The notes beneath the pieces are model-generated. The model was not told the DNA's origin. It did not search any database and worked only from the letters and a program-made list of their open reading frames with translations. The position numbers and the translations under genes were made by a program. From a virus (taxonomy: Duplodnaviria > Heunggongvirae > Uroviricota > Caudoviricetes), in IMG/VR virus record IMGVR_UViG_3300018475_000004: 64,000 nucleotides of DNA; one strand, written 5' to 3'. Positions 48,928 to 62,854 of the stretch are shown piece after piece (positions within the stretch are counted from its first letter, which is position 1; the number at the start of each line of letters is the position of its first letter).

Positions 48928-48929
48928 TA

Positions 48930-49084: not shown

Positions 49085-49473
49085 CTCCGGTTTTTTTATA
49101 ACCAGTTATCCGGTGAGGGGTTATTATTATGATTATGGATAACGACAATAACTCTGTTATAAACTGGGCTTAAAGTTGTTTGGTCATTTACAAGTATTTT
49201 TCGCAGGGGTGTTGGCTTAGAAGTTTGGACTAAAACTAAAACTTCTGAACGAAACTGGGAGGTTATGTGTCAACCAGAAACACTTTCGCAGGTTGCCCGC
49301 CGAGAGAGGCAAACGGCCCACATCGGGTGCTAAGAATAGAGGGTAATTTATTTGTTATCGGCTTCAGCCAGAAATGGAAACCGGACCCGTGATGCTGCGG
49401 ATGGGGGTGCACACCCTGAAATGCGTTTTTCTTGAATGAGAGTTCGCGGAATTCGGATCAAAATCCGCCACAT

Positions 49474-49560
49474 GGGGATATGATGGAATCGGTAGACGTG
49501 TCAGACTCAAAATCTGATGGCCGAGAGGTCGTGTGGGTTCGAGTCCCACTATCCCCACCA
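49474..49560 (+). tRNA. tRNA-Leu(CAA)
   Basis: Type II cloverleaf, CCA. Confidence 0.92.
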
Positions 49561-49713
49561 GCACCGCAGATGTTTGAGTAGGTACCGTCACTGCGGGTAT
49601 AAGTTAAAGACCTAGTACTTACGGGGAAGCGCCATGGGCAGAGTACCGCTGACAACTCTACTGGCCGCAACGGGGTTGTGATTTTACTCGTTGCTTGAAA
49701 ATCACTTTTATAT

Positions 49714-49792
49714 GGGTTATGGGGCTGCTTGGGGTGGCCACCTGTCTGGCAGACAGGATATCAGATCGGTTCGAATCCGATATGATCCACCA
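49714..49792 (+). tRNA. tRNA-Ala(GGC)
   Basis: Cloverleaf, CCTGT-CTGGCAG-ACAGG, CCA. Confidence 0.85.
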
Positions 49793-50028
49793 TTGGCTCA
49801 CGGTGAGCCTGGTTCCTAGGTGGGATCGACAAGAATACACCAGGCGCGACAACGGTGCGAGTACAACAGTTGTAGGCTTCAATGCATGGTCTTCATTATG
49901 CGTCGGTACCTAAGATGCCGTCAATATTGGTTGCTAGCGCCAATTCTAACTAAAAAATCTTTCTTGATTTTTATAAAAAAATATGTTATAATATTTATGT
50001 AAGATAAAGAAAGAGAGGTAAATGAAAT

Positions 50029-50130
50029 ATGTTTGATGATTTCACTACTCAGATTCAATCTGATGAACTGGCAGAAATCCAGGGATGGAATGATGCTATG
50101 GAAGACCCTCGTTATCTTTATGAAGAATAA
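50029..50130 (+). CDS. 33-aa acidic peptide (MFDDFTTQIQSDE...)
   Basis: Own class II promoter, GAGGT RBS, TAA directly before tRNA-Glu. Confidence 0.55.
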   Translation: MFDDFTTQIQSDELAEIQGWNDAMEDPRYLYEE

Positions 50131-50131
50131 T

Positions 50132-50208
50132 GGTCCCATCGTCTAACCGGCATAGGACACCACCCTTTCAAGGTGGAAATCGGAGTTCGAGCCTCCGTGG
50201 GATCACCA
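50132..50208 (+). tRNA. tRNA-Glu(TTC)
   Basis: Cloverleaf with CCA. Confidence 0.9.
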
Positions 50209-50483
50209 GATGGTAAGCCACCAGGAGAAGGAAAACCAGAAAAAACTGGAAATACCGGGGCGAAACCTTTGCCTAAACTGGGCTAAGAAATACAGGTTGC
50301 GTGCGGCCGCAGCACGAGTAAGGGACGTAAAGCGGTGGTTTAAGAGTGTTACCTATAACCAACCGGGCGAGAAAAACAAATGAGCAGGCCCGTTAAAATG
50401 ATAGTCGCGAATATCATCTGCAATCCTGGGCTGGTCGAAAGACCCTGGTCCACCCAAAGGCGCTGGCAACCGGCGCCACATAT

Positions 50484-50559
50484 GGCCCCGTCCTCTAACG
50501 GTTTAGGAGGTCGGCCTCTCACGCCGATAATCCGGGTTCGAATCCCGGCGGGGTCACCA
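50484..50559 (+). tRNA. tRNA-Glu(CTC)
   Basis: Cloverleaf with CCA. Confidence 0.9.
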
Positions 50560-50708
50560 TGCGGCTTGGCCGCTTTATGTAAAAGCGTTAACATGGATTT
50601 GTAAGTTAAACTACCACCGGCTAGGGATACGCAGAGCAATACTGATGCCTTAGATATGTGGCTTAGTGGAAAACGCTATATAAGGAAGCAAAGTAAACTT
50701 ACTAATAT

Positions 50709-50784
50709 AGCTTCGTGGAGCAGTGGAGTGCTCGTCAGTCTGTCACACTGAAGATCGCGGGTTCGATCCCCGTCGAAGCTGCCA
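50709..50784 (+). tRNA. tRNA-Asp(GTC)
   Basis: Cloverleaf, G73, CCA. Confidence 0.9.
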
Positions 50785-50951
50785 TAAGGTATGTTCCCAG
50801 TACCTCGTAGCGGAAAACCTGGGCGTGGAAGAGGAGACGAAAGAATCGCTTTTTTAAGTAGCAAGTTTTGGTGGTGAAACTGCTTTGGGTGTTGATATGA
50901 CCCTAGGGCTTAAGAGCATATTAAAGGATAGCTGTCCAACATCATTTATTT

Positions 50952-51028
<77 letters not shown>

Positions 51029-51224
51029 TTGTAGAGGGATTGAGCTAACCCAGTCCGGACTATAAAAAACTGAAAGCCTTGTAAAAAATGCATGAGGTTT
51101 CAAGAACAGTTTCTCTACTTACCAGATGACTAGGCTCCTGGATTTTTGGAATTCAAGGGACTGCCCCCTTAGAATAGTTAGTCAGGCTTAAAACAGGAAA
51201 CGCAGGACTGTACCTAGTCAATAT

Positions 51225-51300
51225 CCCTCGATAGCTCAGCTGGTAGAGCACTCGGTTCATACCCGGGATGTCGCTGGTTCGAGTCCAGCTCGAGGGACCA
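51225..51300 (+). tRNA. tRNA(CAT), Met or Ile2
   Basis: Cloverleaf with CCA. Confidence 0.85.
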
Positions 51301-51471
51301 GAAGCGCCAGTCATACGCGTTGGTACTGGATAGCCAAAGAGAAGTTCTCAAAATGGGTTGCAAACTGTTGCGATAAAATATTCTCCGCTTTGCCACCCGC
51401 TACTTTGCGGTTCATTTCCTTTCATGTGCGGTCGTGGGGGCTCCGACCGGAAAAAACTCCCCCTTAGATAT

Positions 51472-51545
51472 TGCAGTGGTCGTCTAATGGTAGGACACTA
51501 GGCTCATAACCTGGATACGAGGTTCGAATCCTCCGGCTGCACCCA
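51472..51545 (+). tRNA. tRNA(CAT), Met-like, imperfect acceptor/T junction
   Basis: CTAGG-CTCATAA-CCTGG arm, TTCGAAT loop, ends CCA. Confidence 0.7.
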
Positions 51546-51546
51546 T

Positions 51547-51622
51547 TGCGGGGTAGAGAAATGGTAACTCACTAGCCTCATAAGCTAGAGATTGTCGGTT
51601 CGAGTCCGACCCCACGCAACCA
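51547..51622 (+). tRNA. tRNA(CAT), initiator-like acceptor with bulge
   Basis: TGCGGGG-TA-GAG start, CTAGC-CTCATAA-GCTAG, CCA. Confidence 0.75.
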
Positions 51623-51657
51623 GAATCATAATGATTCTCCTTTCGTTTGTGTTCATA

Positions 51658-51776
51658 AAGACACTCACAGCAAATAGCTTTGTAGCGAGATTAGCTCAGA
51701 TGGGTGAGCAATTGTCTGATAAACAATAGGTCGTTGGTTCGAGTCCAACATTTTGCAAAACAAACAATGTGTCTTG
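51658..51776 (+). ncRNA. ACAGCAA cassette 2 carrying whole tRNA-Ile(GAT) lacking CCA (51685-51757)
   Basis: AAGACAC/GTGTCTT stem encloses unpermuted cloverleaf. Confidence 0.85.
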
Positions 51777-51781
51777 TATAT

Positions 51782-51858
51782 GGGCCGGTAGCTCAGCAGG
51801 TAGTAGCAGTGGACTGAAAATCCACGTGTCGGCGGTTCAATCCCGCCCTGGCCCACCA
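51782..51858 (+). tRNA. tRNA-Phe(GAA)
   Basis: Cloverleaf with CCA. Confidence 0.9.
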
Positions 51859-52147
51859 ATAGTCGGATAGGAGACTATATAATCAAAACCCTATCGTCAA
51901 GACCGGCATCAGGAGATCCACATCATTGGTTTCCTTTCTGTGGTACTTTTGTCATTGTGTTTTTCATTTTATGCCTCCTCATAAAAAATATACAGCGCGA
52001 TGTGGCTGCCGGAAACGTATCCTTTTCTATATATCTCGAAATATATAGAAACAAAAACTACTATATAGCAGAGAGTTTTTACATCTAGGCTCGGGTGAGT
52101 TTGTTTTTTACTCTGCTATTTCTAATGAAAAATTTCGGAGGAATATA

Positions 52148-53170
52148 ATGCAAGATTTATCAATTATTATTCCTGTTTATAATAATCGAGCAGGCTTAAT
52201 TTCGACTCTGTTATCTATTGGTGAAATCGCATAGACTGTCCTTGATTGGGGCATTAAAGTTATCATAGTTGATGATTGTTCTACCGAAGTGAACTATGAT
52301 GACATTCCTCAATTATTTACTTCATTTGTAGATATAACTTTATTTCGATTATCTGAAAATTCAGGACCAGGTCAAGCAAGACAATATGGTTTAGACCATA
52401 GTGATACTGAATATGTTATGTTTTTGGATGCAGGAGATGTATTATCTTTTCCAACTCATTTTATTCAGCTAATGGATTTGGTTTTGCGTCATCCAGATAT
52501 TAAAGTATTTTCATGTGGTCGAGAAGGTATTTCTGATACTCGTCAAATAGGCTATGTTGGTCCAGCGCATAATAAAATTCATGGAAAAATTTATCGATTG
52601 GATTTTCTGAAAAATTATAATATTAGATTCATTTCTGATCATTATTATTCAGAAGATATTGGATTTAATTTAGCTTGTCGATTAGTTTGTGCAGAATTAG
52701 AGCGACGAAAAAATGAGACTCAATTATTTGAATTTCCTAAGCCGATTACAACTGAATTATTCGATGGAAATTCTATTACTCGTAAAAATAATGGTGAGTT
52801 TAAATATACCGAGAATTATGGTCTTGGGTATAATTTAGTTCATGCTCTTGAAATTGCTTTATCGAACGGTGTTCATCCTTCTATTATTGAAGTGTATGGA
52901 TATGAAAATTTAATCTGTCAATATATTTTCTTTTACGAAGCATATACCCATCAAAAAGGTCTTGAAAAAAGTTTAGAGGGATGCCGTTATTGGTATCGAA
53001 ATTTTAAGTATTGTATTCCTAAATTCAATGAGCAATTACTAACTAAAGTATATAATGATATGATGAAAAAATTATATGCAGAAGATGTAGAATATGCTTT
53101 CAATACAACTATTCCTAAATTATCTTTTTGGGATTTTATAAATCTTCTGGAAAAAGAAGATAAAGAGTAA
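52148..53170 (+). CDS. GT2-family glycosyltransferase (code 15, 340 aa)
   Basis: MQDLSIIIPVYNN...GEIA*TVLD...IIVDDCSTE joined through TAG 52232-52234; GPGQARQYG, FLDAGD, SEDIGF motifs. Confidence 0.9.
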
Positions 53171-53188
53171 GAGCAATCTTACTCATAT

Positions 53189-53278
53189 GGACGTGTGGGA
53201 GAGAGGCTTAATCCAGCTCCCTGCTAAGGAGCCGACCTCGTAAGGGGTCCGCTGGTTCGAATCCAGCCACGTCCGCCA
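53189..53278 (+). tRNA. tRNA-Ser(GCT)
   Basis: Type II cloverleaf, G73, CCA. Confidence 0.92.
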
Positions 53279-53452
53279 AGAGCAGAGAAGTACAATTTGC
53301 TTAGTGATGTATAGTGTAGGTAGGAAAGAGCACGCCAAAATGGAGGTCATATGCCAGAGTAGGTAACCCGGACGCCTAAGAAGCTCACCCGGTGCATCAC
53401 GCAGGCATCTAACGCCAAGGGCTTGCGGCCGCCAGTAAGTGTCGCATTATAT

Positions 53453-53540
53453 GGAGGAGTAAGCATAATTGGTACTGCCACGGTCTAGAAAACCGTTCGT
53501 CCGCAAGGGCGTGCAGGTTCGAGTCCTGTCTCCTCCGCCA
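53453..53540 (+). tRNA. tRNA-Ser(AGA)
   Basis: Type II cloverleaf, ACGGT-CTAGAAA-ACCGT, G73, CCA. Confidence 0.88.
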
Positions 53541-53697
53541 GCGTCTTTAGGGGCGGGATAGTGGCGTGAAAGTAAATGTGTCATGCAGGTTGTGCTGTTC
53601 CTCACTACATCTTGAATGTAGGAGTTGCATTGAAATTAAAACCCCTCTGTTATACTCCAGGCAGTTATTACGATTCTAGATTCTCGTAGGAGAATAT

Positions 53698-53774
53698 GCC
53701 CCGATAGCTCAGTTGGCCAGAGCATTTGATTAGTAATCAAAAGGTCGTCGGTTCGAATCCGACTCGGGGCTCCA
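53698..53774 (+). tRNA. tRNA-Thr(AGT)
   Basis: Cloverleaf, TTTGA-TTAGTAA-TCAAA, U73, CCA. Confidence 0.9.
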
Positions 53775-53909
53775 TATAGGTGCCTCGAAGTTTGCCCGAT
53801 AAAGGTTTGAGTCCAAAAGGTTGAGACCTAAAGTGCTCAACATAATAAAGGGGATTACAAGCATACCAGAAGCAGAGGTAAATGGAATTTGATAAACAGC
53901 CTATAATTT

Positions 53910-53986
53910 GCGCGCTTAGCTCAGCTGGTTAGAGCATCTGCCTTACAAGCAGGGGGTCACTGGTTCGAATCCAGTAGTGCGCACCA
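53910..53986 (+). tRNA. tRNA-Val(TAC)
   Basis: Cloverleaf with CCA. Confidence 0.92.
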
Positions 53987-54121
53987 CTCTCCGTAGTTGG
54001 TTCCATTTGCCAATATAGATAGAAAAGTTCTTTCGCCGTTGATACCCGCAAATATTGGGAGTAGGTTAGGAAAGTGAGGCACAAGCGCACTGGACCTGCG
54101 CTGGCTACGGAGATACCATAT

Positions 54122-54197
54122 GTGGGTGTAGCTCAGTTGGTAGAGTATCTGATTGCCATTCAGAAGGTCGCGGGTTCGAATCCCGTTACCCACTCCA
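54122..54197 (+). tRNA. tRNA-Gly(GCC)
   Basis: Cloverleaf, U73, CCA. Confidence 0.9.
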
Positions 54198-54355
54198 AAA
54201 GTCATATCGAGGGGTATGGTTGAAGCGGTGCAAGATGGATAGAGTTGGCCATAAACGCGGATAGTCCATGTAGCAGGGTAGATATGATAAAGAGGTACTC
54301 TCTGATGCGGAGAGCTAAGTAGGGAGAAGACCGCACTCATATGCCTCTTTGATAT

Positions 54356-54433
54356 GGTGGGTGTAGCTTAGTTGGTTAAAGCGCCAGATTGTGGCTCTGG
54401 AGATCGCCAGTTCGAGTCTGGTCACTCACCCCA
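54356..54433 (+). tRNA. tRNA-His(GTG)
   Basis: 8-bp acceptor with G-1:C73, CCA. Confidence 0.92.
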
Positions 54434-54512
54434 TAGACAGACACAGCAAATATATTTTTTACTAAAAACGCTTATTTTGGGTTTAAGAAATGTTAAAGTA
54501 ATTTCTGTCTAG
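54434..54512 (+). ncRNA. ACAGCAA cassette 3, cargo includes Pro(TGG)-like anticodon stem-loop
   Basis: TAGACAG/CTGTCTA stem; CTTAT-TTTGGGT-TTAAG. Confidence 0.75.
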
Positions 54513-54517
54513 TATAT

Positions 54518-54594
54518 GCGCCAGTGGCTCAGTAGGATAGCGCAACTGCCTTCTAAGCAGTAGGTCGGGGGTTCGAATCCCTCCTGGCGTACCA
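54518..54594 (+). tRNA. tRNA-Arg(TCT)
   Basis: Cloverleaf with CCA. Confidence 0.9.
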
Positions 54595-54702
54595 CTTAGG
54601 GAGTAGAGTAACGGTGCCCCTTACGAAGTCGAAGCTTGGCTAAGTTCAAGCGACCATGGCGCACACCGCGAATCCTAAATTGAAGAAAAGGAGAAATTCA
54701 AG

Positions 54703-54933
54703 ATGGTTACACCTGTAAAGTTTGAAACCAAGGAAGATTTATTCCGTTTCAGTGAGTTAGCAAGTAAGCAGGATTTCAATATTTTCATCGGTACTGATTA
54801 TGGTCAGTTAGATGCCAAGAGTCTTCTGGCTCTGTTCACCATTCTCGGCAAGGAAGTAAATGTTGTTGCCCCTGATCACGCAAGTGCTGACAAGTTTATG
54901 AAGTTCCTCGATGAGTATAACCGTGCGGTCTAA
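54703..54933 (+). CDS. HPr-like phosphocarrier-fold protein
   Basis: 76 aa, LDAKSLLALFTI matches HPr Ser46 region; lacks N-terminal active-site His. Confidence 0.55.
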   Translation: MVTPVKFETKEDLFRFSELASKQDFNIFIGTDYGQLDAKSLLALFTILGKEVNVVAPDHASADKFMKFLDEYNRAV

Positions 54934-54946
54934 TCCGCACAAATAT

Positions 54947-55023
54947 GCGGGTTTAGCTCAGTTGGATAGAGTACCTGGCTACGAACCAGTAGGTCGGGGG
55001 TTCGAGTCCCTCAACCCGTACCA
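54947..55023 (+). tRNA. tRNA-Arg(ACG)
   Basis: Cloverleaf with CCA. Confidence 0.92.
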
Positions 55024-55172
55024 ATAGAGTCCTCCAGAACTCTTGCGACAAATCGCTAATCTGGATATGGGGATGGGGCCCAAAAGGATCAGAATTAGGT
55101 GGGCTTTATGTTGCGGTTGAGGCGGCCCGCAACAGTTGATTTTCAAAAAAATTTTTGATATAATATATACAT

Positions 55173-55291
55173 AAGGCAGATACAGCAAATAACTTTTTTC
55201 AAGTTCTATAGTCTATTGGATATGACATTTTCCTTCCACGAAAAAGAGACGGGTTCAATTCCCGTTAGAATCAGAAAAATTACCTGCCTTG
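55173..55291 (+). ncRNA. ACAGCAA cassette 4 carrying degenerate whole tRNA-Gly(TCC)
   Basis: AAGGCAG/CTGCCTT stem; TTTTC-CTTCCAC-GAAAA arm, GGTTCAATTCC T loop, no CCA. Confidence 0.8.
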
Positions 55292-55296
55292 AATAT

Positions 55297-55373
55297 GCTC
55301 CAGTAGCTCAGATGGTTAGAGTACACGACTGATAATCGTGAGGTCACTGGTTCGATCCCAGTCTGGAGCACCA
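55297..55373 (+). tRNA. tRNA-Ile(GAT)
   Basis: Cloverleaf with CCA. Confidence 0.92.
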
Positions 55374-55374
55374 A

Positions 55375-55442
55375 GAGGAAGAAACTTCGGTTCAAATCCG
55401 AACATGGGCCCTGTAGTTTAGGTTGGTTTAGAACGCTTCCTC
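55375..55442 (+). ncRNA. Permuted tRNA-like element open at anticodon and closed at acceptor
   Basis: GAGGAAG, T arm TTCGG-TTCAAAT-CCGAA, CATGGG-CCCTG, TA, D arm, CTTCCTC. Confidence 0.7.
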
Positions 55443-55451
55443 CTTTTATAT

Positions 55452-55529
55452 CCGGGTGTAGCTCAGTTTGGCTAGAGCGCGTGATTTGGGATCACGAGGC
55501 CGAGAGTTCGAGTCTCTCCACTCGGACCA
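55452..55529 (+). tRNA. tRNA-Pro(TGG)
   Basis: Cloverleaf with CCA. Confidence 0.92.
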
Positions 55530-55618
55530 GCATAACGCAAACTATCTCATAACTGCACATACTAAAACTTCGGAGTTGTGCCCGACTGGCAGGGAGTAGT
55601 TTTCAGCCTGCCTTATTT

Positions 55619-55694
55619 CGAGATATGGCGCAGATGGTAGCGCGCTTCCTTGGGGTGGAAGAGGCCACAGGTTCGAGTCCTGTTATTTCGACCA
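55619..55694 (+). tRNA. tRNA-Pro(GGG)
   Basis: Cloverleaf with CCA. Confidence 0.9.
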
Positions 55695-55810
55695 GCCTTC
55701 TTTGGCAGTCAAATAAACTTAGTGAGCCGTCTGGTGCGAACAGACAAATTGGTCCAGGCGATAAAGTGGAGAGATAGGCCAATTCAAATAAACGCACTCT
55801 CAAATATTTA

Positions 55811-55947
55811 TAGACACACACAGCAAATTTATTCTATTAAGAATAATATCGGTTCGAGTCCGATACCAACCGCCCTTAGGTTAGTTTGAGAAATTGGTAA
55901 ACTCACTTGTCTGTAAAACAAGCAAATGTCTTAATTAATGTGTCTAG
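55811..55947 (+). ncRNA. ACAGCAA cassette 5 carrying circularly permuted tRNA-Tyr(GTA)
   Basis: TAGACAC/GTGTCTA stem; variable/T arm and ACCAACC precede GGTTAGT, D arm and CTTGT-CTGTAAA-ACAAG. Confidence 0.8.
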
Positions 55948-56015
55948 CATAAAAAATCTTCTTTGATTTTTTCAAAAAAATATGTTATAATATATACATA
56001 AGATAAAGAAAGGAA

Positions 56016-56330
56016 TTGAAGAAGATGCCAAGAATTATTTCAGCCGCAATCAAATTCAAGCCAAAAGGTCATGAATATTTTCAAATCATGTGCGGTCGCC
56101 AGCATTGTGACGTGCTGGAAATGATGTATCAGCTTCGCATTGATTATGAGCGATCCTCAATGGTTCAAGGCTTCTTGACTGATGAAGATCAATTCCTTGA
56201 TCGATATGACGCGGCTCGCGCAGCTTATTTCTCTGGCCAGCTTTCTCCTAACACGGAGCTTTGGCAGAAAATGGCTTCTGATGACCGTTTCCAGAACGCA
56301 CACGCTCTCTATTCGGAGGATTTATGGTAA
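56016..56330 (+). CDS. Conserved hypothetical phage protein
   Basis: IISAAIK...GRQH.D...QGFLTDEDQFLDRYDA...A...GQL...LYSEDLW; probable start ATG 56025. Confidence 0.7.
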   Translation: MKKMPRIISAAIKFKPKGHEYFQIMCGRQHCDVLEMMYQLRIDYERSSMVQGFLTDEDQFLDRYDAARAAYFSGQLSPNTELWQKMASDDRFQNAHALYSEDLW

Positions 56331-56482
56331 GTTGGATACGGTCTTTATTTTGTAAGCATGAATGGCAGTTTCATAAGACTGTCCGAATATGGTGGGACCC
56401 AGAAGCAAATGTCATTGATCAGCAATATGATGTTTATGTCTGTCCCAAGTGTTTGAAAGTAAAAAAAGTAAAGTTCATATAA
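56324..56482 (+). CDS. Small Cys/His protein (LFCKHEW...CPKC)
   Basis: 52 aa overlapping upstream stop, GGAGG RBS. Confidence 0.6.
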   Translation: MVSWIRSLFCKHEWQFHKTVRIWWDPEANVIDQQYDVYVCPKCLKVKKVKFI

Positions 56483-56487
56483 AATAA

Positions 56488-56597
56488 AAGGCACATACAG
56501 CAATTACACATTCTATGTGTTGTGGGTTCAAGTCCCATTTTTCTAGCCATTTTAGAAAATAGTACAATCGGTAGTACAATAGACTTCAAGTGCCTTG
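56488..56597 (+). ncRNA. ACAGCAA cassette 6 carrying circularly permuted tRNA with probable TCA anticodon
   Basis: AAGGCAC/GTGCCTT stem; TCTAT..T arm..TTTTCTA-G-CCA then TAGAAAA, D arm, ATAGA-CTTCAA. Confidence 0.8.
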
Positions 56598-56604
56598 TTT
56601 ATAT

Positions 56605-56680
56605 TGGGGATTGGCGTAATGGTAGCGCGCAGGACTTTGACTCCTGGTCTGTAGGGGTTCGACTCCCTTATCCCCAGCCA
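56605..56680 (+). tRNA. tRNA-Gln(TTG)
   Basis: U1-A72, G73, CCA. Confidence 0.9.
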
Positions 56681-56708
56681 TAAGCCTTTTTATATTCATT
56701 CAACATCT

Positions 56709-56772
56709 AAGACTCTAACAGCAATTTATTTTGGAACAACCTTTTAACTTGTCTACCAGAAACTGAGTCTTG
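56709..56772 (+). ncRNA. ACAGCAA cassette 7, cargo Lys(TTT)-like anticodon stem-loop
   Basis: AAGACTC/GAGTCTT stem; ACAAC-CTTTTAA-CTTGT. Confidence 0.8.
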
Positions 56773-56783
56773 AACATTTATAT

Positions 56784-56857
56784 TCCCGCTTAGTCTAATG
56801 GCAAAACGGCAGACTCTGACTCTGCATTTGGTGGTTCGAGTCCATCAGCGGGAGCCA
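56784..56857 (+). tRNA. tRNA-Gln(CTG)
   Basis: U1-A72, G73, CCA. Confidence 0.9.
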
Positions 56858-57198
56858 AACTCATAGTGGATAATGGCGTTACGTTCCTAATCGGCCGCTG
56901 CCCCAGAAATGCGAAAATGTGTCGAACCTATGAGTTGCCAAAAGTAGGAGTTCTTGGATGGGAACCAAGTATAAATCTCTGAAAAACCTCAAAGGTGGGC
57001 TTTGAAAGTAGCCATCCTATAATGAGTGGTGCGATGCGTACGGCGGACCTTTGGTGTAATAACACATGAGGCAGGTTTGCGGTCAACCTGGCCAAAAACC
57101 GAAATGTGTTCTGCGCGACCGGCCGAAGGGGCAACGGGAATAATGACCCTTCACCAAAAATTTGACTTTTCAAAAAAAATTTGTTATAATATAAATAT

Positions 57199-57277
57199 AA
57201 GGCTCAAACAGCAATTCTTATTCATAAAATTTGCGACTGCAACTCGCTCCAACTGTATGAGAAAAAAGTGAGCCTTG
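57199..57277 (+). ncRNA. ACAGCAA cassette 8, cargo Cys(GCA) anticodon stem-loop
   Basis: AAGGCTC/GAGCCTT stem; GCGA-CTGCAAC-TCGC on TCATA/TATGA stem. Confidence 0.82.
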
Positions 57278-57279
57278 AA

Positions 57280-57965
57280 GCACTCCTGACAGAAACCCTC
57301 CGGTGAATAACCCTGGTGAGTGCGATTTCGACTAATGACTGTCATGAACCTTGATAAGTTTGCAACTCGGTGAAGAACGAATACCATCGTGCCGAGATCC
57401 TCATCCTGCCTGTGGGTACCAGGAGTCCGAAAAGCAATCTTACCGACGATAGCCGGTAATAGGTAGATTCTCTTGTGGTGACATAAGAGAGCCGCCTCCA
57501 AAGGGAGGGCCTGGATGGAGAGGAGTGCAAAGATAACCGCAATCAAAAATACCGTCTTATCGCTTCCGCAATAGACGCCCCCGTGGGGAATAAGCCTTGT
57601 TAGGGATTAGCTGGTGACTGTTCCAGACCAAGGTACACCAATAAGGAAGTCTGCGTTGATGTCGGAGTAATCCGGCTATAAGGTAAGGTCAGGGTACGAG
57701 TAGCTCTATCGCAACGACGAGAAGAAAGATTGGGCTGTTTAGATAGTATGGTTTAATAGACTTAAACAATTCTGAATGGCGAGTGAAAGTTAGAGGCAAT
57801 CAGTCCTCTGCGGGATAGGGTAGGAAAGGCCGCCTCTGGTGTGTCAGAACTACTGGGGCAAGAAGCTTAGGGTCGCTCCCGAAGGCTCAGACTTGTCTCC
57901 CCGGTGATTGAATATGGTTGAAGGTTATAGGGAGTATGACGAAGGTCAGCAAACTTATCAGGTTT
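57280..57965 (+). ncRNA. Probable GOLLD RNA (boundaries approximate)
   Basis: About 690 nt ORF-free structured region between tRNAs; 3' blocks GTAGCTCTATCGCAA, GAATGGCGAGTGAAAGTT..AATCAGTC, GGGTCGCTCCC..GGCTCAGAC, GAATA..GAAGGT..AGTATG..AAGGTC resemble the GOLLD 3' core as I recall it. Confidence 0.68.
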
Positions 57966-57973
57966 ATAAATTT

Positions 57974-58127
57974 GGGAAACTGGCGGAATTGATAAACGCA
58001 CCGGAGCCGAAAGGCTTTTCATTTGAAAAAGGTGTTGGCAAAGACCTTATCCGCAATATGTTTCTATGATTACTGTAAATCCGGCGTCTGAAAAGACTTC
58101 TTGGTTTGAGTCCAAGGTTTCCCACCA
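57974..58127 (+). tRNA. tRNA-Tyr(GTA) interrupted by 67-nt insertion (58006-58072)
   Basis: GGGAAAC/GTTTCCC, A73, CCA, long variable arm; removal gives CCGGA-CTGTAAA-TCCGG. Confidence 0.8.
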
Positions 58128-58493
58128 GGGGCGAAAGAAATGTCGCCTAGCCCCCGTAAAGGCGACAATCAGCGAGTTCATTATTTTTCTCGCTCCACCA
58201 CCCTCCATGCCCAAGGAGATTGAACAAGGCTAAAGCGAAAGTCCTCGCGTGACGTGTTGAGCCTCCAGGTTGCTCGTGCCTGCACAGCGACTGTTTTCAC
58301 AATGCGTCGGGAAGTGTCTGAGCGATGTAGATTTTACCCGGGACAAGTCTACACCGGTAGGTCGTTCAAGTTGAGGTCAGACATATACTGAACAAGGCAT
58401 TTATATTTCGGCAGACACCGTGGCCGGCGTTAGATAATTTATATGATTTAGTTTTGAAATATAGTAGAAGCTAAAAGAAAAGGAGATTTTACT

Positions 58494-58901
58494 ATGTTAT
58501 TTGAAACAAATCGTGACAAAGGTCGCGCAGGTATGGCAATGGCAATTGCCTATTTTGGAGCCAATGGATACACTGTGAATGTTCCTCTAAATGATACTCA
58601 ATGGTATGATTTAGTCATTGAAAAAGATGGTGAATTTAAGACAGTCCAATGTAAAGCAACTGGAAGTTCTGATAATACTATTTCTTTGAGAAGTACTGGC
58701 GGAACCAAGGGCGGTACGTATGATAATGTTCTTAATCATCCAGTTGATTATTTATTCTGTTTAGATGGAAATATGAATATGTATGTCATTCCAGTAGCAG
58801 ATATGAAAGAATATGGCTGTAATAAACAAATTACTCTCCGCACTCAAAAATCTGCAAATGGATAGGGTTTTCAAACTTATCAATATCAGGTGTCTTTATA
58901 A
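58494..58901 (+). CDS. Small PD-(D/E)XK endonuclease (group-I-intron-associated / I-Ssp6803I-like; code 15)
   Basis: KGRAG..A.AYF...GY.V..PL.D...YDLVIE......VQCK; TAG 58863-58865 read through to TAA 58899-58901. Confidence 0.75.
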
Positions 58902-58911
58902 TTAAAGATAT

Positions 58912-59001
58912 GGGTCAGTAAAGCGTTAAGGCAGGCGCCCCGGTCTGTAAAACCGGTCCGTTAACACGGTCGAGTGAGTTCAATTCTCTCCTGGCCCACC
59001 A
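58912..59001 (+). tRNA. tRNA-Tyr(GTA)
   Basis: Type II cloverleaf, A73, CCA. Confidence 0.88.
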
Positions 59002-59771
59002 AGAGGTTCAAACCTCTAAAAAATGAATACCATTCGCTGCGAATATAGGCGGGGCATCCTTTCATTCCCAAAGTCCTCGTAGGGTAAAACGTGAGAACTG
59101 CTCCTATGGCTGAAGGTTCTCGGTGGTATTTGAACTAAATAAGGTTTCACTCCGCCTGGTGACTGTGGTGAAACGATATATCCCGACCCGTGCTGATACG
59201 TATCAGATATTTAGTTCGACGCCCCATATGCGTTAATATGGTAGGTTTTCTTTTGACTTTTACCTCAAGCACATAGTTTGATTTTTTCGCTAAAAAGTCA
59301 AAGAGCAGTTTAGTGTTAAAAAGAAAGTGAGACCTTTACTTATAGTCTACGGTCTGTAAGATAAAGTAATCTCCGCTAAGTTGCGCTTCCCCAGACGAAT
59401 AAATAAATCTGAGCGCCTCTATCGCGAAATGGATAGATGATATTGGGTAGCGATAATTGATTGCAGATTTGCCAACTGCCTTAATGTATAATGATATTAG
59501 AAATCTTGTAGGAACTGACATAGCACATGGACCCCAATTCCATGGTCAGGCAACGAAAAGCAAAAGGTGAATACAAGTGGAAAATCCATATTGAATGATG
59601 ATAAGAGCCGATGGTAAATTAGAAGCAGGTCGGTAGTATATGGCGACTCGTTGTAGTCAGCGCATATAAAGTAGGCTCAAGTTAGATTTCAATGTGGATT
59701 TTTTCTATCCTTTTTACTTTGAAAAGTTGATTTTCTAAAAAATTTTTTGTATAATATATACATAAGAAATA

Positions 59772-59838
59772 AAGGCTCACACAGCAACTAATTTTATGAT
59801 GCAGACTTAAAATCCGTTTATCAGAAAAGCGAGCCTTG
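59772..59838 (+). ncRNA. ACAGCAA cassette 9, cargo Leu(TAA)-like anticodon stem-loop
   Basis: AAGGCTC/GAGCCTT stem; GCAGA-CTTAAAA-TCCGT on TGAT/ATCA stem. Confidence 0.8.
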
Positions 59839-59842
59839 ATAT

Positions 59843-59918
59843 GCCAGTATAGCGTAATTGGCAGCGCAACTGACTTGTAATCAGTAGGTTGTCGGTTCGA
59901 GTCCGACTACTGGCTCCA
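59843..59918 (+). tRNA. tRNA-Thr(TGT)
   Basis: Cloverleaf, U73, CCA. Confidence 0.92.
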
Positions 59919-59946
59919 TAAGTTTTATATAGAAAGGATGATTCCA

Positions 59947-60726
59947 ATGCAGGGTGCTATATTTTCAGGTTATGATGCCCGAGATTACAAATTGGTTTAC
60001 ACCGCTTCTGGCGTAGAATTCCCCGCTGAATTTGAGCTGAAGATGCGTGGTATTAAGAATTAGGGTGCGGTCGGCAGCTGTGTCGCTCACTCTTTAGCTA
60101 GTATTATCGAATACTACAACTATACTCAAACTGGTGATCCCAGTGAAATGAGTGTAGGCTATATTTACGGAAACCGTAATACTTCTGACTATAAAGAGTC
60201 AGGTATGATTATGCGTGATGCTCTTGAAGTTGTTCGTAAATATGGCGACGTCAAATATGATTTATTCCCTTACAATCGTGAAGTCCCCGAAATGATTGAT
60301 CTTTATGAGCGTCAGGGTAAGAAATTATTCAAGCAAGGTTATCCCAACCGCATTAGTCAGTATGCTCGTGTTACCAGTTTCAATGCAGTAAAGGCTGCTT
60401 TGATGGCTGGCAATCCTGTTCTAATGGCTATGTGCTGGTTCGCTGATATGGAAGTTGATGATGAAGGTGTTCTACGCACTGAATTTAAAGGCTACGATGG
60501 CGGACATTGTATGTTCATCTATGGCTGGGATGAGCGTGGCTGGAAGGTCCAGAACTCTTGGGGTGAAGATTGGGGAAATCATGGATGTATGATTATTCCT
60601 TACGATATGCCCATCGAAGAAGTTTGGACTTTGACCGATAATGTAATTGAGAATACTAAGACTAAGAAACCCCATAAGTGTATCGCAAAAGTATGTAATG
60701 CTATTTCTAAAATTTTCAAAAAGTAA
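59947..60726 (+). CDS. C1 (papain-family) cysteine peptidase (code 15, 259 aa)
   Basis: IKN*GAVGSCVAHS (TAG 60061-60063 at oxyanion Gln), GGHCM, VQNSWG motifs. Confidence 0.92.
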
Positions 60727-60739
60727 TAAGAGGTAAATT

Positions 60740-61105
60740 ATGATTTTCGATGAGAACAAGTACAAGTGTTATGGTTATGACGAGAAGAATGAGGACGGTT
60801 CCATCCGTTGTCATTGTGTCGTCGCAATTTCTTCCTATGCTGGCAAGCCTGTAAAGGGTTACGCTAAGTGCCATCCTAATGACCAGTGGGACTGGGAAAA
60901 GGGTAAGGCTCTGGCTATCGCTCGCTGCGCCGAGAAGATCGCTGTGAAGCGCGCCAATCGTGCAAACGCAAAGCTGGCTGAGGCTCAGGATATTCTGGCA
61001 GACGCTATCGCTCATATGAACGATATGCTGAACTACTACATGGATTCCGGCGACGAAGTTATGCTAACCAACACCATGAAGAACGAGATTTTGGCTCATA
61101 TGTAA
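60740..61105 (+). CDS. Conserved hypothetical phage protein
   Basis: YAGKPVKGYAKCHPND.WD.EKGK.LA.ARC motif. Confidence 0.7.
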   Translation: MIFDENKYKCYGYDEKNEDGSIRCHCVVAISSYAGKPVKGYAKCHPNDQWDWEKGKALAIARCAEKIAVKRANRANAKLAEAQDILADAIAHMNDMLNYYMDSGDEVMLTNTMKNEILAHM

Positions 61106-61144
61106 TTATATAGAAGGGGCATTATGCCCCTTCAATAGAGTTAT

Positions 61145-61233
61145 GGACAGGTGGTAGAGTCTGGCTTATTACACCGGTCTTGAAAACCGGCGGGCGTAAT
61201 GCTCCGGGGGTTCGAATCCCTCCCTGTCCGCCA
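61145..61233 (+). tRNA. tRNA-Ser(TGA)
   Basis: Type II cloverleaf, G73, CCA. Confidence 0.9.
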
Positions 61234-61343
61234 TCATTTGTAGTTCAAGAAGAAGAATACCCCGTTCCGGAACTTTTTGGGGAGATCTCTTGCGCTACCC
61301 GCCAAGAGCAAATGAGCCTATAAAATTTAGAGAGGATGATTTT

Positions 61344-61667
61344 ATGATTGGTGTTTACAATCGTGATGTATCAATTCGTAAGGCTTTAAGAAAGCGTAGA
61401 ATCGATCAGCAACACAAGACAAGTTGGAATAATGGAGAACCTGTTACCTGGTATGACAACCTTCACCAGTATTCTAAAAATAAAATCCATTCATCTCATT
61501 ATACCTCCCGCACCCGCAACAAGGGTTCCAGGAGAATAAAGTATGGAAATTATGACCGCGCTATCCATTACAGTGCGGCCGATATGCGGAAGGTCCTTGC
61601 GATGGACGAAGATATGCGGGAGGCTGGCTATCACGCGCCTCGACACAAGCGTTGTCGTTTCGCATAA
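61344..61667 (+). CDS. Basic hypothetical protein
   Basis: 107 aa, R/K-rich, RBS GAGGA. Confidence 0.6.
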   Translation: MIGVYNRDVSIRKALRKRRIDQQHKTSWNNGEPVTWYDNLHQYSKNKIHSSHYTSRTRNKGSRRIKYGNYDRAIHYSAADMRKVLAMDEDMREAGYHAPRHKRCRFA

Positions 61668-61849
61668 TGGGACGCCGCAAGAAAAGACCTGAACTATCTT
61701 ATCACTTCTGGCTTGATACAGATGGATGCTGGTTCTGCAAGAAGAAAAATGCCTGCGGTGGATGTAAAGTATTGAAGCGCTACATCCATGAAAAAGAGAG
61801 AAGTCAGAGAAAAATTTCTCGTGACGAGAAGCGTTGGCTTGACTTTTGA
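61667..61849 (+). CDS. Small basic Cys-cluster protein
   Basis: 60 aa, CWFC..CGGC, TAATG coupling. Confidence 0.6.
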   Translation: MGRRKKRPELSYHFWLDTDGCWFCKKKNACGGCKVLKRYIHEKERSQRKISRDEKRWLDF

Positions 61850-61875
61850 AATTTTTTTTAGTATAATAAATACAT

Positions 61876-62012
61876 AAGGCACATACAGCAATACATTTTT
61901 CAAAATTTAAGGCTGTCAACCCGTAGGCTGCAGGTTCGAGTCCTGTCCCCGTCTCCACGGCGGGGTAGCTCAAGTGGTAGAGCAACGTAAAACGATTTTG
62001 TGATGTGTCTTG
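61876..62012 (+). ncRNA. ACAGCAA cassette 10 carrying circularly permuted tRNA-Asp(GTC)
   Basis: AAGGCAC/GTGTCTT stem; 3' part 61911-61957 ending CCA precedes 5' part 61959-61987. Confidence 0.88.
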
Positions 62013-62023
62013 ATTTATTATAC

Positions 62024-62098
62024 TGCGGTGTCGTTCAAAGGTCAGGACAGGGGTCTCTAAAACCTCGGATGTGAGTTCGATTCTCACCGCCGCTGCCA
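62024..62098 (+). tRNA. Amber suppressor tRNA (anticodon CTA), probably Gln
   Basis: GGGGT-CTCTAAA-ACCTC arm, U1:U72 mismatch, G2-C71, G73, CCA. Confidence 0.9.
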
Positions 62099-62166
62099 AA
62101 GAGATCGTAATTGATTTTTATAAAAAAAAATGATATAATATATACATAAGAGATAAGGAAATAAAA

Positions 62167-62261
62167 AAGGCTCTTACAGCAAGTCTTAAACTTGGATAAT
62201 AAAATTTTTTCTGTACAAAATTTTTAGTAGGTTCGAGTCCTACAAACTATCAAGAGCCTTG
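62167..62261 (+). ncRNA. ACAGCAA cassette 11, cargo D-armless tRNA-like element (GTA loop plus T arm)
   Basis: AAGGCTC/GAGCCTT stem; CTGTACA loop; GTAGG-TTCGAGT-CCTAC. Confidence 0.75.
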
Positions 62262-62268
62262 TCTAAAT

Positions 62269-62355
62269 CCCGGCGTGGTGGAATTGGTAGACACAAGGGA
62301 CTTAAAATCCCTCGGTGGCGACACCGTACCGGTTCGAGTCCGGTCGCCGGGACCA
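62269..62355 (+). tRNA. tRNA-Leu(TAA)
   Basis: Type II cloverleaf, CCA. Confidence 0.92.
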
Positions 62356-62434
62356 CGAATCTTAAATAGAAAGGACTGAGTCCAATGTGGAGGTTTACTG
62401 TCTTCTAACTTCAACAAAAGGAGGTTAGAAGTAA

Positions 62435-62734: not shown

Positions 62735-62854
62735 GTTGATTTTTCAAAAAAATTTTTGTATAATATAAATACAAGGAAAAAAGAAAATCTTCTCCCCTTT
62801 CTTTAAGTTCCTATCTTCTCGGGGGCATTCCTCGGAGTGCCCCACCTTTTCGAT

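What the first reader, a model, noticed from the sequence alone, without database searches (positions are those of the whole stretch)
55811..55947. Circularly permuted tRNA-Tyr(GUA) split between anticodon arm and variable arm
Seen: hairpin ATTCT-ATTA-AGAAT (variable-arm-like), T arm ATCGG-TTCGAGT-CCGAT and ACCAACC come first; after a 7-nt linker come GGTTAGT, a D arm and CTTGT-CTGTAAA-ACAAG. The acceptor pairs 6 of 7. This third breakpoint type shows the cassette tolerates different permutation points. Inference: the frame, not the tRNA geometry, defines the ends, or the RNA acts unligated as a mimic.
Basis: partly seen in the sequence, partly recalled or inferred. Interest (0 to 1): 0.82.

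Follow-up and report, generated by a model that had tools for sequence, protein, structure and literature searches.

The report
tRNA-shaped cargo of a phage Y-like RNA
The "permuted tRNA-Tyr" is really there, but it is most likely a tRNA look-alike held in a small phage RNA that partners a Ro60-shaped protein, not a gene for a working tRNA; in related phages the same element keeps its fold and changes only its anticodon.

Summary
Observation confirmed. At 55811-55947 a 7-bp clamp helix (TAGACAC/GTGTCTA) plus ACAGCAA encloses, in order, a small hairpin, a T arm, an acceptor helix closed by a 7-nt loop, a D arm and an intact anticodon arm (loop CUGUAAA). ARAGORN calls tRNA-Tyr(GUA) once the two halves are swapped.

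The reading as a tRNA-Tyr gene is not supported.
- The order V-T-closed acceptor-D is that of YrlA-type bacterial and phage Y RNAs, here with an added anticodon arm.
- Ten relatives carry the same cassette at the same spot. 98% of pair cells are paired and 14 of 27 pairs show compensatory change.
- With further IMG/VR copies, the anticodon reads Tyr (only here), Phe, Ile, Cys, Leu, Ser or Trp.
- The "variable arm" is present in all of them. The closing loop rarely keeps CCA. Leader and trailer form no bulge-helix-bulge, and no splicing endonuclease or RNA ligase was found in this incomplete record.

The clamp-ACAGCAA handle occurs about 13 times in this tRNA array and in many large phages. It travels with a DUF2828 protein (28/35 against 0/15 records). 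This phage's copy folds like Ro60.

Earlier agents of this scan reported the handle family on other DNA. The full-cloverleaf cargo with a changeable anticodon is what this report adds.

The parts
55811..55817 (+). 5' strand of the clamp helix (TAGACAC)
   Evidence: It pairs with 55940-55946. All 7 pairs are paired in every ortholog, and 2 of them show compensatory change.
55820..55826 (+). Unpaired handle word ACAGCAA, 2 nt after the clamp
   Evidence: There are 11 exact copies on the + strand of the tRNA array, each with its own covarying clamp. Variants are CCAGCAA near 63290 and ACAGCGA near 48020. The word is invariant in the orthologs.
55831..55844 (+).
   Evidence: It is present in all orthologs whatever the anticodon. 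ATTCT/AGAAT changes to CTTCT/AGAAG or CTCT/AGAG. It sits where the V stem-loop of YrlA sits.
55848..55864 (+). T arm ATCGG-TTCGAGT-CCGAT
   Evidence: Found by the motif scan. All 5 pairs are 100% paired and 2 are compensatory.
55865..55885 (+). Closed acceptor helix: ACCAACC, loop GCCCTTA, GGTTAGT
   Evidence: All 7 pairs covary. The A5.C68 mismatch recurs in the window, L142, L125, L129, L148 and L150. In relatives the loop is 3-10 nt long, and only 2 kinds keep N-CCA.
55886..55905 (+). U8-U9, D arm GAG-AAATTGGTAAA-CTC, A26
   Evidence: The GG of the D loop and the TTC of the T loop are kept. The D stem changes GAG/CTC to GCG/CGC, a compensatory change.
55906..55922 (+). Anticodon arm CTTGT-CTGTAAA-ACAAG (GUA)
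   Evidence: The stem is 100% paired with 2 compensatory pairs. Loop positions 32, 33, 37 and 38 are invariant, while 34-36 vary: GTA, GAA, GAT, GCA, TAA, GGA, CCA.
55923..55939 (+). A/U-rich trailer between anticodon arm and clamp
   Evidence: It has no stable pairing with the leader (duplex energy no better than -1.0 kcal/mol). Many relatives carry GTCTTTTAGAT here.
55940..55947 (+). 3' strand of the clamp (GTGTCTA) plus the following G
   Evidence: Immediately after it lies a sigma-70-like promoter at 55961-56010.

Best explanation
The element is one small RNA of a multi-copy family in this phage's tRNA array. Each member has a constant handle: a 6-7-bp clamp helix joining its 5' and 3' ends, then 2 nt, then unpaired ACAGCAA. 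Each carries a variable cargo made of tRNA parts.

The cargo here is a complete tRNA cloverleaf wired as in YrlA-type Y RNAs: V hairpin, T arm, acceptor helix closed by a loop, then D arm. It also has an intact anticodon arm showing the tRNA-Tyr loop CUGUAAA.

I infer that it stays unligated and works as a tRNA mimic. In this reading the handle is bound by the phage's Ro60-shaped DUF2828/DUF7788 protein, as Y RNAs are bound by Ro60. The L-shaped cargo, with its anticodon, offers a tRNA-like surface to some tRNA-recognising factor: an anticodon nuclease, a modification enzyme or a repair enzyme.

Shown here: the fold and its covariation; the family and its genomic link to the protein; the Ro60-like fold of the protein; and the changing anticodon.

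Inferred, not shown: that the protein binds the handle, and what the mimic does.
For: 1. Structure. All five helices are kept by compensatory change in 11 orthologous sequences.

2. Topology. The order V-T-closed acceptor-D equals that of YrlA (Chen et al. 2014, PMC4201824). The Rfam YrlA model matches three sibling cassettes end to end: 48020-48188 at 43.7 bits, 61903-62010 at 40.8 bits and 56488-56599 at 31.7 bits, with E from 5e-7 to 2e-3. All are below the gathering score of 69.

3. Not a fixed tRNA. Orthologs at the syntenic place (after tRNA-Pro(GGG), before the promoter of a T4_Y16D-like ORF) and further IMG/VR copies read GAA, GAU, GCA, UAA, GGA or CCA on a homologous body with C32, U33, A37 and A38 fixed. 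The nearest relative, L142, differs in the loop by one base.

4. Family. About 13 cassettes lie in this window, with normal-order, permuted or hairpin-only cargo. 103 distinct frames were found in other viral contigs.

5. Partner.
- A 503-aa DUF2828+DUF7788 ORF lies 12.6 kb downstream on the same strand.
- DUF2828 is present in 28 of 35 handle-bearing records and in 0 of 15 records without the handle. Among records at least 90% complete the counts are 13 of 13 and 0 of 6.
- Cassettes abut the gene in Listeria virus P61, Mycobacterium phage Moostard (gene annotated 'Ro-like RNA binding protein') and Bacillus phage vB_BanS-Thrax1.
- The AlphaFold model (pLDDT 93, pTM 0.92) has 13 best PDB matches, and all of them are Ro60 or Rsr, including Thermus phage phiLo Ro60 (E from 9e-9 to 6e-6, TM up to 0.61).

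6. Expression in a relative of P61. Listeria phage CKA15 has three very highly transcribed unannotated regions within 2 kb upstream of its Rsr-like CKA15_055 (PMC12282133). That these regions are the three cassettes is my inference.
Against: - No experiment shows that DUF2828 binds the handle.
- The handle lacks the CGAA/GNCGAA motif that Ro60 proteins recognise in known bacterial and phage Y RNAs.
- Pfam TROVE does not match this genome.
- Rfam YrlA does not match this particular cassette at E up to 10.
- In this phage the protein gene is 12.6 kb from the cassette, not adjacent.
- Two kinds of ortholog keep N-CCA in the closing loop (L142 A-CCA, L125 G-CCA), which hints that the acceptor end may be opened in some.
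- The co-occurrence counts come from related phages and are not independent events.
- The G000 record is only 67% complete, so missing enzymes prove little.
Confidence: 0.7

Rival explanations
1. The RNA is a Y-like RNA that is opened at the acceptor loop. RNase P cuts 5' of G55879, the 3' side is trimmed and CCA is added, as reported for M. smegmatis YrlA. The result is a two-piece tRNA-like molecule held together by the clamp and the acceptor helix. It might even be aminoacylated or enter tRNA-specific pathways.
For: - The acceptor helix has 7 bp stacked on a canonical T arm. In YrlA a 7-bp acceptor stem is thought to be the determinant of RNase P cleavage.
- N-CCA is present in the closing loops of L142 and L125 and of the sibling cassettes at 56488 (G-CCA) and 61876 (T-CCA).
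- Most closing loops start with R-C.
Against: - Here the loop reads G-CCC-TTA. Three kinds of ortholog have a 3-nt loop, ACA. Only 2 of about 14 loop types keep CCA.
- The discriminator is G, whereas the phage's own tRNA-Tyr has A73.
- The anticodon changes without matching changes in the body.
- The RNA contigs show nothing either way.
Confidence: 0.15
2. It is a true circularly permuted tRNA-Tyr gene. The precursor is cut at the leader and trailer, the ends are ligated into a circle, and the linker is removed to give a working tRNA-Tyr, as in Cyanidioschyzon merolae.
For: The 3' half lies before the 5' half with a 7-nt linker. All cloverleaf elements and the usual tertiary-contact bases are present. 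ARAGORN accepts the re-permuted sequence.
Against: - Anticodon identity is not conserved among orthologs.
- The V hairpin is present with class I anticodons too.
- It has G73 and no CCA, and an A5.C68 mismatch is kept.
- No leader-trailer helix or bulge-helix-bulge exists.
- No tRNA splicing endonuclease, RtcB, Rnl2-type or T4 Rnl1-type ligase was found in the 138.8-kb record, which is incomplete.
- A normal tRNA-Tyr(GUA) with A73-CCA lies at 58912-59001.
- Sibling cassettes with the same handle hold only a hairpin, or lack an anticodon arm, and could never yield a tRNA.
Confidence: 0.04
3. The clamp-ACAGCAA frame is only a processing or stability signal for spacer RNAs of the tRNA operon, for example a block to exonucleases or an RNase site. 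The tRNA-like cargo would be leftover from tandem tRNA genes, with no role of its own and no tie to the Ro60-like protein.
For: - Most cassettes end about 15 nt before a normal tRNA.
- Tandem tRNAs with 0-2 nt spacers exist in this array, so permuted remnants could arise by deletion.
- N-CCA remnants occur in some closing loops.
Against: - Compensatory change in every helix of the cargo, including all 7 acceptor pairs, shows selection on the fold.
- The handle occurs next to DUF2828 genes in phages where it is not inside a tRNA operon, and it tracks that gene across records.
- This cassette is followed by a promoter, not a tRNA.
Confidence: 0.08

Closest known systems
YrlA-type Y RNAs of bacteria and mycobacteriophages bound by Ro60/Rsr (Chen et al. 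2014, PMC4201824; Rfam RF02553)
   Same: - The 5' and 3' ends pair into a stem.
- Inside lies a tRNA-like domain in the order V stem-loop, T arm, closed 'acceptor' stem-loop, D arm.
- The T-loop and D-loop bases needed for the tRNA elbow are kept.
- It is encoded in a genome with a Ro60-shaped protein.
- Sibling cassettes here are matched end to end by the Rfam model at E from 5e-7 to 2e-3.
   Different: - The protein-binding module is a short clamp plus ACAGCAA instead of the bulged stem with GNCGAA/CGAA.
- The partner is a DUF2828/DUF7788 protein that Pfam TROVE does not detect.
- This cassette has a full 5-bp anticodon arm with a canonical 7-nt loop, which YrlA lacks.
- It does not reach the Rfam threshold. 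There is no match at all for this cassette, and the siblings score 32-44 bits against a threshold of 69.
Circularly permuted tRNA genes of Cyanidioschyzon merolae and other algae and archaea (my recollection of Soma et al. 2007; reviewed in PMC4090602 and PMC3400036, which one search listed but I did not read)
   Same: The gene order is 3' half, short linker, 5' half. The re-permuted sequence is a good cloverleaf.
   Different: - There is no bulge-helix-bulge at the ends.
- No splicing endonuclease was found.
- The anticodon is not conserved among orthologs.
- It is embedded in a repeated handle that also carries cargo that cannot become a tRNA.
Thermus phage phiLo Ro60 with Yrl1/Yrl2 (PMC12135203; PDB 9KOP, 9L5Y)
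   Same: A phage-encoded Ro60-type ring protein with phage-encoded small RNAs that have a 5'-3' stem and an unpaired motif beside it. The model of this phage's DUF2828 protein matches 9KOP at E 9e-8.
   Different: The phiLo RNAs use CGAA, shown there by mutation to matter for binding, and have no tRNA-like cargo. Sequence identity of the proteins is about 14%.
D. radiodurans Yrn1
   Same: It is a Y RNA that can be drawn with a possible anticodon-like arm with a 5-bp stem.
   Different: Yrn1's loop has 6 nt. It has no V arm, its D arm is doubtful, and its T and D arms are oriented the other way round relative to the 5' end.
Class I RNAs of dictyostelid amoebae (Kjellin et al. 2021, PMC7919456; Rfam RF01414)
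   Same: A short (6-bp) stem joins the 5' and 3' ends, a conserved unpaired motif lies directly after the 5' strand, and the rest is variable. The paper's nearly invariant positions (T3, C6, C9, A10, A11 of the 11-nt motif) fit ...ACAGCAA. The motif's letters themselves I recall from memory only.
   Different: They are eukaryotic, 42-65 nt long, and no tRNA cargo is reported. The Rfam model gives no match in this array at E up to 5.

Membership tests
Circularly permuted tRNA gene (C. merolae type) | The 3' half lies upstream of the 5' half, with the acceptor strands joined by a short linker | tested here: met
   7-nt linker GCCCTTA. ARAGORN calls tRNA-Tyr after re-permutation.
Circularly permuted tRNA gene (C. 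merolae type) | Leader and trailer form a bulge-helix-bulge that a tRNA splicing endonuclease cuts | tested here: not met
   the best leader-trailer duplex is -1.0 kcal/mol here and -0.1 to +1.4 in the orthologs; no tRNA_int_endo in the record, which is 67% complete.
Circularly permuted tRNA gene (C. merolae type) | A ligated (circular, then linear) product exists | tested here: inconclusive
   metatranscriptome contigs show no joint from 55922 back to about 55830, but contigs cannot show absence. No RNA ligase family was found. The control for PF09511 did not ring anywhere.
Circularly permuted tRNA gene (C. merolae type) | A fixed amino-acid identity: anticodon and identity elements conserved in orthologs | tested here: not met
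   seven different anticodons on a homologous body. Here G73 and CCC, against A73-CCA in the phage's real tRNA-Tyr.
YrlA-type Y RNA (Rfam RF02553) | The 5' and 3' ends pair, and the tRNA-like domain is ordered V, T, closed acceptor, D | tested here: met
   This cassette has an extra anticodon arm after the D arm.
YrlA-type Y RNA (Rfam RF02553) | Ro60-binding module with the conserved GNCGAAN0-1G (CGAA) motif | tested here: not met
   The handle is clamp-NN-ACAGCAA. In the Rfam alignment of a sibling the stem part of the model does not fit.
YrlA-type Y RNA (Rfam RF02553) | Reaches the curated Rfam score | tested here: not met
   No match to this cassette at E up to 10. Siblings score 31.7-43.7 bits against a threshold of 69. 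Moostard's cassette scores 37.9 bits.
YrlA-type Y RNA (Rfam RF02553) | Encoded with a Ro60 (TROVE) protein | tested here: inconclusive
   Pfam TROVE is absent. A DUF2828/DUF7788 protein 12.6 kb downstream folds like Ro60.
Clamp-ACAGCAA 'Y-like' RNAs travelling with DUF2828 (family met repeatedly by this scan; I found no paper describing it) | A 6-7-bp clamp of free sequence, 2 nt, unpaired ACAGCAA, variable cargo, and the 3' clamp strand usually followed by G | tested here: met
   the clamp is 100% paired with compensatory changes, and ACAGCAA is invariant in the orthologs.
Clamp-ACAGCAA 'Y-like' RNAs travelling with DUF2828 (family met repeatedly by this scan; I found no paper describing it) | Co-occurrence with a DUF2828 gene | tested here: met
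   28/35 against 0/15 records (Fisher p = 8e-8; the records are related, so this is not a true probability). The RNAs and the gene are adjacent in P61, Moostard and Thrax1.
Clamp-ACAGCAA 'Y-like' RNAs travelling with DUF2828 (family met repeatedly by this scan; I found no paper describing it) | The protein binds the handle | not testable with these tools
   No RNA-protein prediction or binding data are available.
Dictyostelid Class I RNA (RF01414) | Matches the family model and occurs in Dictyostelia | tested here: not met
   No RF01414 match in 47000-64000 at E up to 5. Only the stem-plus-motif layout is alike.

The most novel reading that the evidence does not exclude
The anticodon arm is a programmable bait. 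The Ro60-like protein holds a full tRNA mimic whose anticodon is tuned, phage by phage, to a host factor that reads one anticodon loop, for example an anticodon nuclease of a defence system or a modification enzyme. The RNP would then decoy, sense or recruit repair for exactly the tRNA under attack. The rapid turnover of positions 34-36 on a fixed scaffold would be the trace of that arms race.
Probability: 0.15. Interest if true: 0.85.

Novelty: new variant of a known kind. Interest (0 to 1): 0.62.

Why it matters
Y RNAs with tRNA-like domains are known, but what the tRNA-like part is for is still open. This element is a version that includes a complete anticodon arm, and its anticodon alone changes between closely related phages while every helix is kept. 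That points to the anticodon as the working surface and gives a direct experimental handle: swap the anticodon and look for what binds or cuts it.

It also guards against a wrong annotation. These elements should not be counted as tRNA genes or as evidence for tRNA splicing in phages.

The handle-plus-DUF2828 pairing is present in hundreds of cultured phages, including those of Listeria, Bacillus, Mycobacterium, Staphylococcus, Enterococcus and the Felix O1 group. The biology can therefore be tested in ordinary laboratory systems.

Tried and rejected
1. BLAST of 55700-56400 and of 30000-46000 against cultured phages gave no match. No cultured phage with this exact cassette type is known to me.

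2. Doubling the cargo and running ARAGORN across the junction failed, because the untrimmed leader and trailer make the variable region too long. Trimming was needed.

3. A DNA search of the five nearest viral contigs matched only the handle. The orthologs were found instead through the neighbouring T4_Y16D-like ORF.

4. Metatranscriptome contigs from four RNA runs gave patchy cover, mostly from relatives.
- No joint links the end of the anticodon arm to the V hairpin.
- One 179-nt RNA contig covers sibling cassette 56482-56619.
- Contigs cannot show ends or absence, so this counts neither for nor against any reading.

5. A crude scan for anticodon-like hairpins in 116 cargos found no excess over their reverse complements (31 against 28). 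I make no general claim that cargos are enriched in anticodon loops.

6. Six of the seven anticodons end in A36, so they would read codons beginning with U. Starting from GAA by single steps this is not significant (my estimate p about 0.35). I record it only as an observation.

7. A sequence profile of DUF2828 against PDB sequences found nothing useful. Only the fold comparison found Ro60.

8. Searches for TROVE, RtcB, RNA_ligase, RNA_lig_T4_1 and tRNA_int_endo in the 138.8-kb record found none. The record is 67% complete.

9. No supplementary files of Chen et al. 2014 are held. I therefore could not check whether their mycobacteriophage YrlA RNAs are these ACAGCAA RNAs.

Full report
**Setting**

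The window is part of a 138.8-kb IMG/VR virus record, estimated 67% complete. From about 47.3 kb to the window's end it holds a tRNA array. ARAGORN finds 36 tRNAs, among them a normal tRNA-Tyr(GUA) at 58912-59001 and an amber suppressor. There is also a ROOL RNA at 57342-57967. Thirteen near-identical sigma-70-like promoters are spread through the array.

The sequence at 55811-55947 reads as follows:
- clamp strand TAGACAC, AC, then ACAGCAA, ATTT
- hairpin ATTCT-ATTA-AGAAT, AAT
- T arm ATCGG-TTCGAGT-CCGAT
- ACCAACC, loop GCCCTTA, GGTTAGT
- TT, then D arm GAG-AAATTGGTAAA-CTC, A
- anticodon arm CTTGT-CTGTAAA-ACAAG
- a 17-nt A/U-rich trailer
- clamp strand GTGTCTA, G

Neither ARAGORN nor Rfam sees a tRNA in the native order, even at E up to 10. 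With the two halves swapped, ARAGORN calls tRNA-Tyr(gta) for 438 of 900 ways of trimming the junction. The call is robust because the anticodon arm is intact.

The acceptor pairs 6 of 7, with an A5.C68 mismatch. U8, the GG of the D loop and the TTC of the T loop are in place. The re-permuted sequence is only 59% identical to the phage's real tRNA-Tyr, so it is not a recent copy of it.

**It is one copy of a repeated frame**

ACAGCAA occurs 11 times on the + strand between 51.6 and 63.1 kb. Each copy lies 2 nt after a 7-nt word whose complement lies 40-170 nt downstream, usually followed by G and then, about 15 nt later, by a normal tRNA. Variant words are CCAGCAA near 63290 and ACAGCGA near 48020. 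These bring the count to about 13, as another first-reader note on this window also lists.

The cargo differs from copy to copy:
- normal-order tRNA look-alikes without CCA (51685 Ile, 55202 Gly)
- modules of hairpin, T arm, loop-closed acceptor and D arm (56488, 61876, 48002)
- short hairpins (54434, 56709, 57199, 59772)

Three cassettes start 8 nt after a -10 box, that is at the likely transcription start. The clamp therefore marks the RNA's 5' end.

**The topology is that of YrlA**

Chen et al. (2014, PMC4201824) describe YrlA Y RNAs in this order: 5' stem strand, V stem-loop, T stem-loop, an 'acceptor' stem-loop between T and D, D stem-loop, 3' stem strand. That is exactly the order here.

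The Rfam YrlA model matches the three sibling cassettes over its full length, with E from 5e-7 to 2e-3 and scores of 31.7-43.7 bits against a gathering score of 69. The match comes through the T, acceptor and D parts, not the stem. The present cassette is not matched, presumably because it has an extra arm.

The 'variable arm' is the V stem-loop.

**Orthologs decide between tRNA gene and mimic**

Homologs of the 101-aa T4_Y16D-like ORF just downstream (56025-56330) led to ten relatives with the same cassette at the same place, after tRNA-Pro(GGG) and before that ORF's promoter. In the alignment of 11 sequences (A1) and on the structure I wrote:
- 98.2% of cells are paired, against 26-46% when partners are slid.
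- 14 of 27 pairs change on both sides.
- All 7 acceptor pairs covary.
- No shuffle out of 500 reaches the observed score.

The fold is therefore under selection, which rules out a decayed remnant.

The anticodon, however, is not kept. The loop is always C-U-NNN-A-A. NNN is GUA only in this window. It is GAA in L142, L139, L120, L132 and L133, GAU in L125, L129 and L136, GCA in L122, UAA in L130 and GGA in L143. The nearest relative, L142, has an identical T arm, D arm and anticodon stem and differs in the loop by one base.

Two pattern scans of IMG/VR, with the anticodon left free, added twelve more loci, among them one CCA (Trp), GAU, GAA and UAA.

Further points against a true tRNA:
- The V hairpin is present with all these anticodons.
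- The closing loop ranges from 3 nt (ACA) to 10 nt, and only two kinds read N-CCA.
- An A.C mismatch at 5:68 is conserved in one clade.
- A real tRNA could not change its anticodon this freely on a constant body without mistranslation.
- Leader and trailer do not pair.
- No splicing endonuclease or RNA ligase family was found, though the record is incomplete.

**The partner**

Notes from earlier agents of this scan gave the lead that such handles travel with DUF2828. I tested this here.
- The record encodes a 503-aa DUF2828+DUF7788 protein on the same strand, 12.6 kb downstream of the cassette. It lies past three more tRNAs, an EcoRI-like methylase gene and a GmrSD-HNH gene.
- I checked 50 viral records fetched through a loose handle pattern. 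DUF2828 is present in 28 of the 35 whose fetched locus holds a proper clamp-ACAGCAA frame, and in none of the 15 chance matches. Among records at least 90% complete the counts are 13 of 13 and 0 of 6. The records are related, so the p-values overstate independence.
- Homologs of the protein occur in 704 cultured phage records. Mycobacteriophage annotators call it 'Ro-like RNA binding protein'.
- In Listeria virus P61 three handle RNAs lie within 350 nt upstream of the gene. In Mycobacterium phage Moostard three lie just downstream, the middle one with a YrlA-type cargo. In Bacillus phage vB_BanS-Thrax1 six lie in the tRNA array ending just upstream.
- An AlphaFold model built on 74 diverse relatives is confident (pLDDT 93.1, pTM 0.92). 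Its 13 best PDB matches are all Ro60 proteins: Xenopus, human, Deinococcus Rsr and Thermus phage phiLo. After them come vWA-only matches.

For Listeria phage CKA15, a relative of P61, a paper reports three very highly transcribed unannotated regions within 2 kb upstream of an Rsr-like protein that is also found in virions (PMC12282133). That these regions are the three cassettes is my inference.

**What differs from known Y RNAs**

Known bacterial and phage Y RNAs carry GNCGAA/CGAA beside the stem. In phiLo, mutating CGAA weakens binding three- to four-fold. Here the word is ACAGCAA next to a short clamp. Pfam TROVE does not see the protein, and the RNAs stay below Rfam's YrlA threshold, including Moostard's. 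I found no paper on DUF2828 in phages.

The layout of a short stem plus a motif right after its 5' strand also recalls dictyostelid Class I RNAs. The Rfam model of that family finds nothing here.

**Mechanism, with its limits**

Shown:
- the fold and its covariation
- the family of cassettes
- the genomic link to a Ro60-shaped protein
- the mutable anticodon

Inferred:
- that the protein binds the handle
- that the RNA stays unligated
- that the tRNA-shaped cargo, and above all its anticodon loop, is presented to a tRNA-recognising factor

A sub-variant I cannot exclude (0.15) is opening of the acceptor loop by RNase P with CCA addition, as in M. smegmatis YrlA. The metatranscriptome contigs gave no usable evidence on ends or junctions.

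**Verdict**

'Permuted tRNA-Tyr gene' is not supported, while 'unligated mimic' is. The element is a new variant of a known kind: a Y RNA with a tRNA-like domain.

Earlier agents of this scan have reported the handle family on other DNA. What this report adds is the full-cloverleaf subtype, its orthologs and the anticodon turnover.

Noticed in passing
window 55374-55451: A second kind of tRNA-elbow element without ACAGCAA. The stem AGAGGAAG/CTTCCTC encloses a T arm (TTCGG-TTCAAAT-CCGAA), a short GC-rich hairpin and a D-arm-like GTTTAGGTTGGTTTAGAAC. Similar elements (GAGAG...T arm...D arm...CTCTC) lie at the same place in relatives L120 and L133.
   Followed up: partly
window 57199-57277 and 57342-57967: A handle cassette whose cargo includes a hairpin with loop CTGCAAC (a Cys-like anticodon loop) starts at a promoter. 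It lies 65 nt upstream of a full-length ROOL RNA (323 bits).
   Followed up: no
window 63543-63632: A partial match to OLE RNA (52.9 bits against a threshold of 50, model positions 436-595 only), right after tRNA-Lys. It is odd for a phage and may be a shared sub-structure rather than OLE.
   Followed up: no
window 50427-50462: A DUF3800-XI RNA motif match (47.6 bits, threshold 37.8) in the spacer before tRNA-Glu(CUC).
   Followed up: no
window 48930-48998 and 49014-49083: Two tRNA-like sequences that Rfam accepts (38.6 and 40.8 bits) but ARAGORN does not call. They are packed 2 and 15 nt after their upstream neighbours.
   Followed up: no
window 53987-54121, 54198-54356 and other 135-200-nt spacers: Many inter-tRNA spacers fold with long terminal stems (for example CTCTCCGTAG...CTACGGAGA). 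They look like further structured RNAs without the ACAGCAA handle.
   Followed up: no
orthologs of the cassette (window, L142, L125, L129, L148, L150): An A.C mismatch at acceptor position 5:68 is kept while the neighbouring pairs covary, which suggests a recognised feature. Six of the seven anticodons seen end in A36 and so would read codons beginning with U. This is not significant if they arose by single steps from GAA.
   Followed up: partly
G000:C1:4858-8881 (4.6-8.7 kb past the window's end): The DUF2828 gene is preceded by an EcoRI-like adenine methylase gene and a GmrSD-N/HNH endonuclease gene. tRNA-Lys(CUU), tRNA-Met and tRNA-Cys(GCA) lie between them and the window's end, so the genome does have a tRNA-Cys.
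   Followed up: partly
L145 (Listeria virus P61) 6843-8054: In P61 an annotated 'tRNA-splicing ligase' (RtcB-type by its name) lies 1.3 kb downstream of the DUF2828 gene and its three handle RNAs. A NADAR-domain gene follows it.
   Followed up: no
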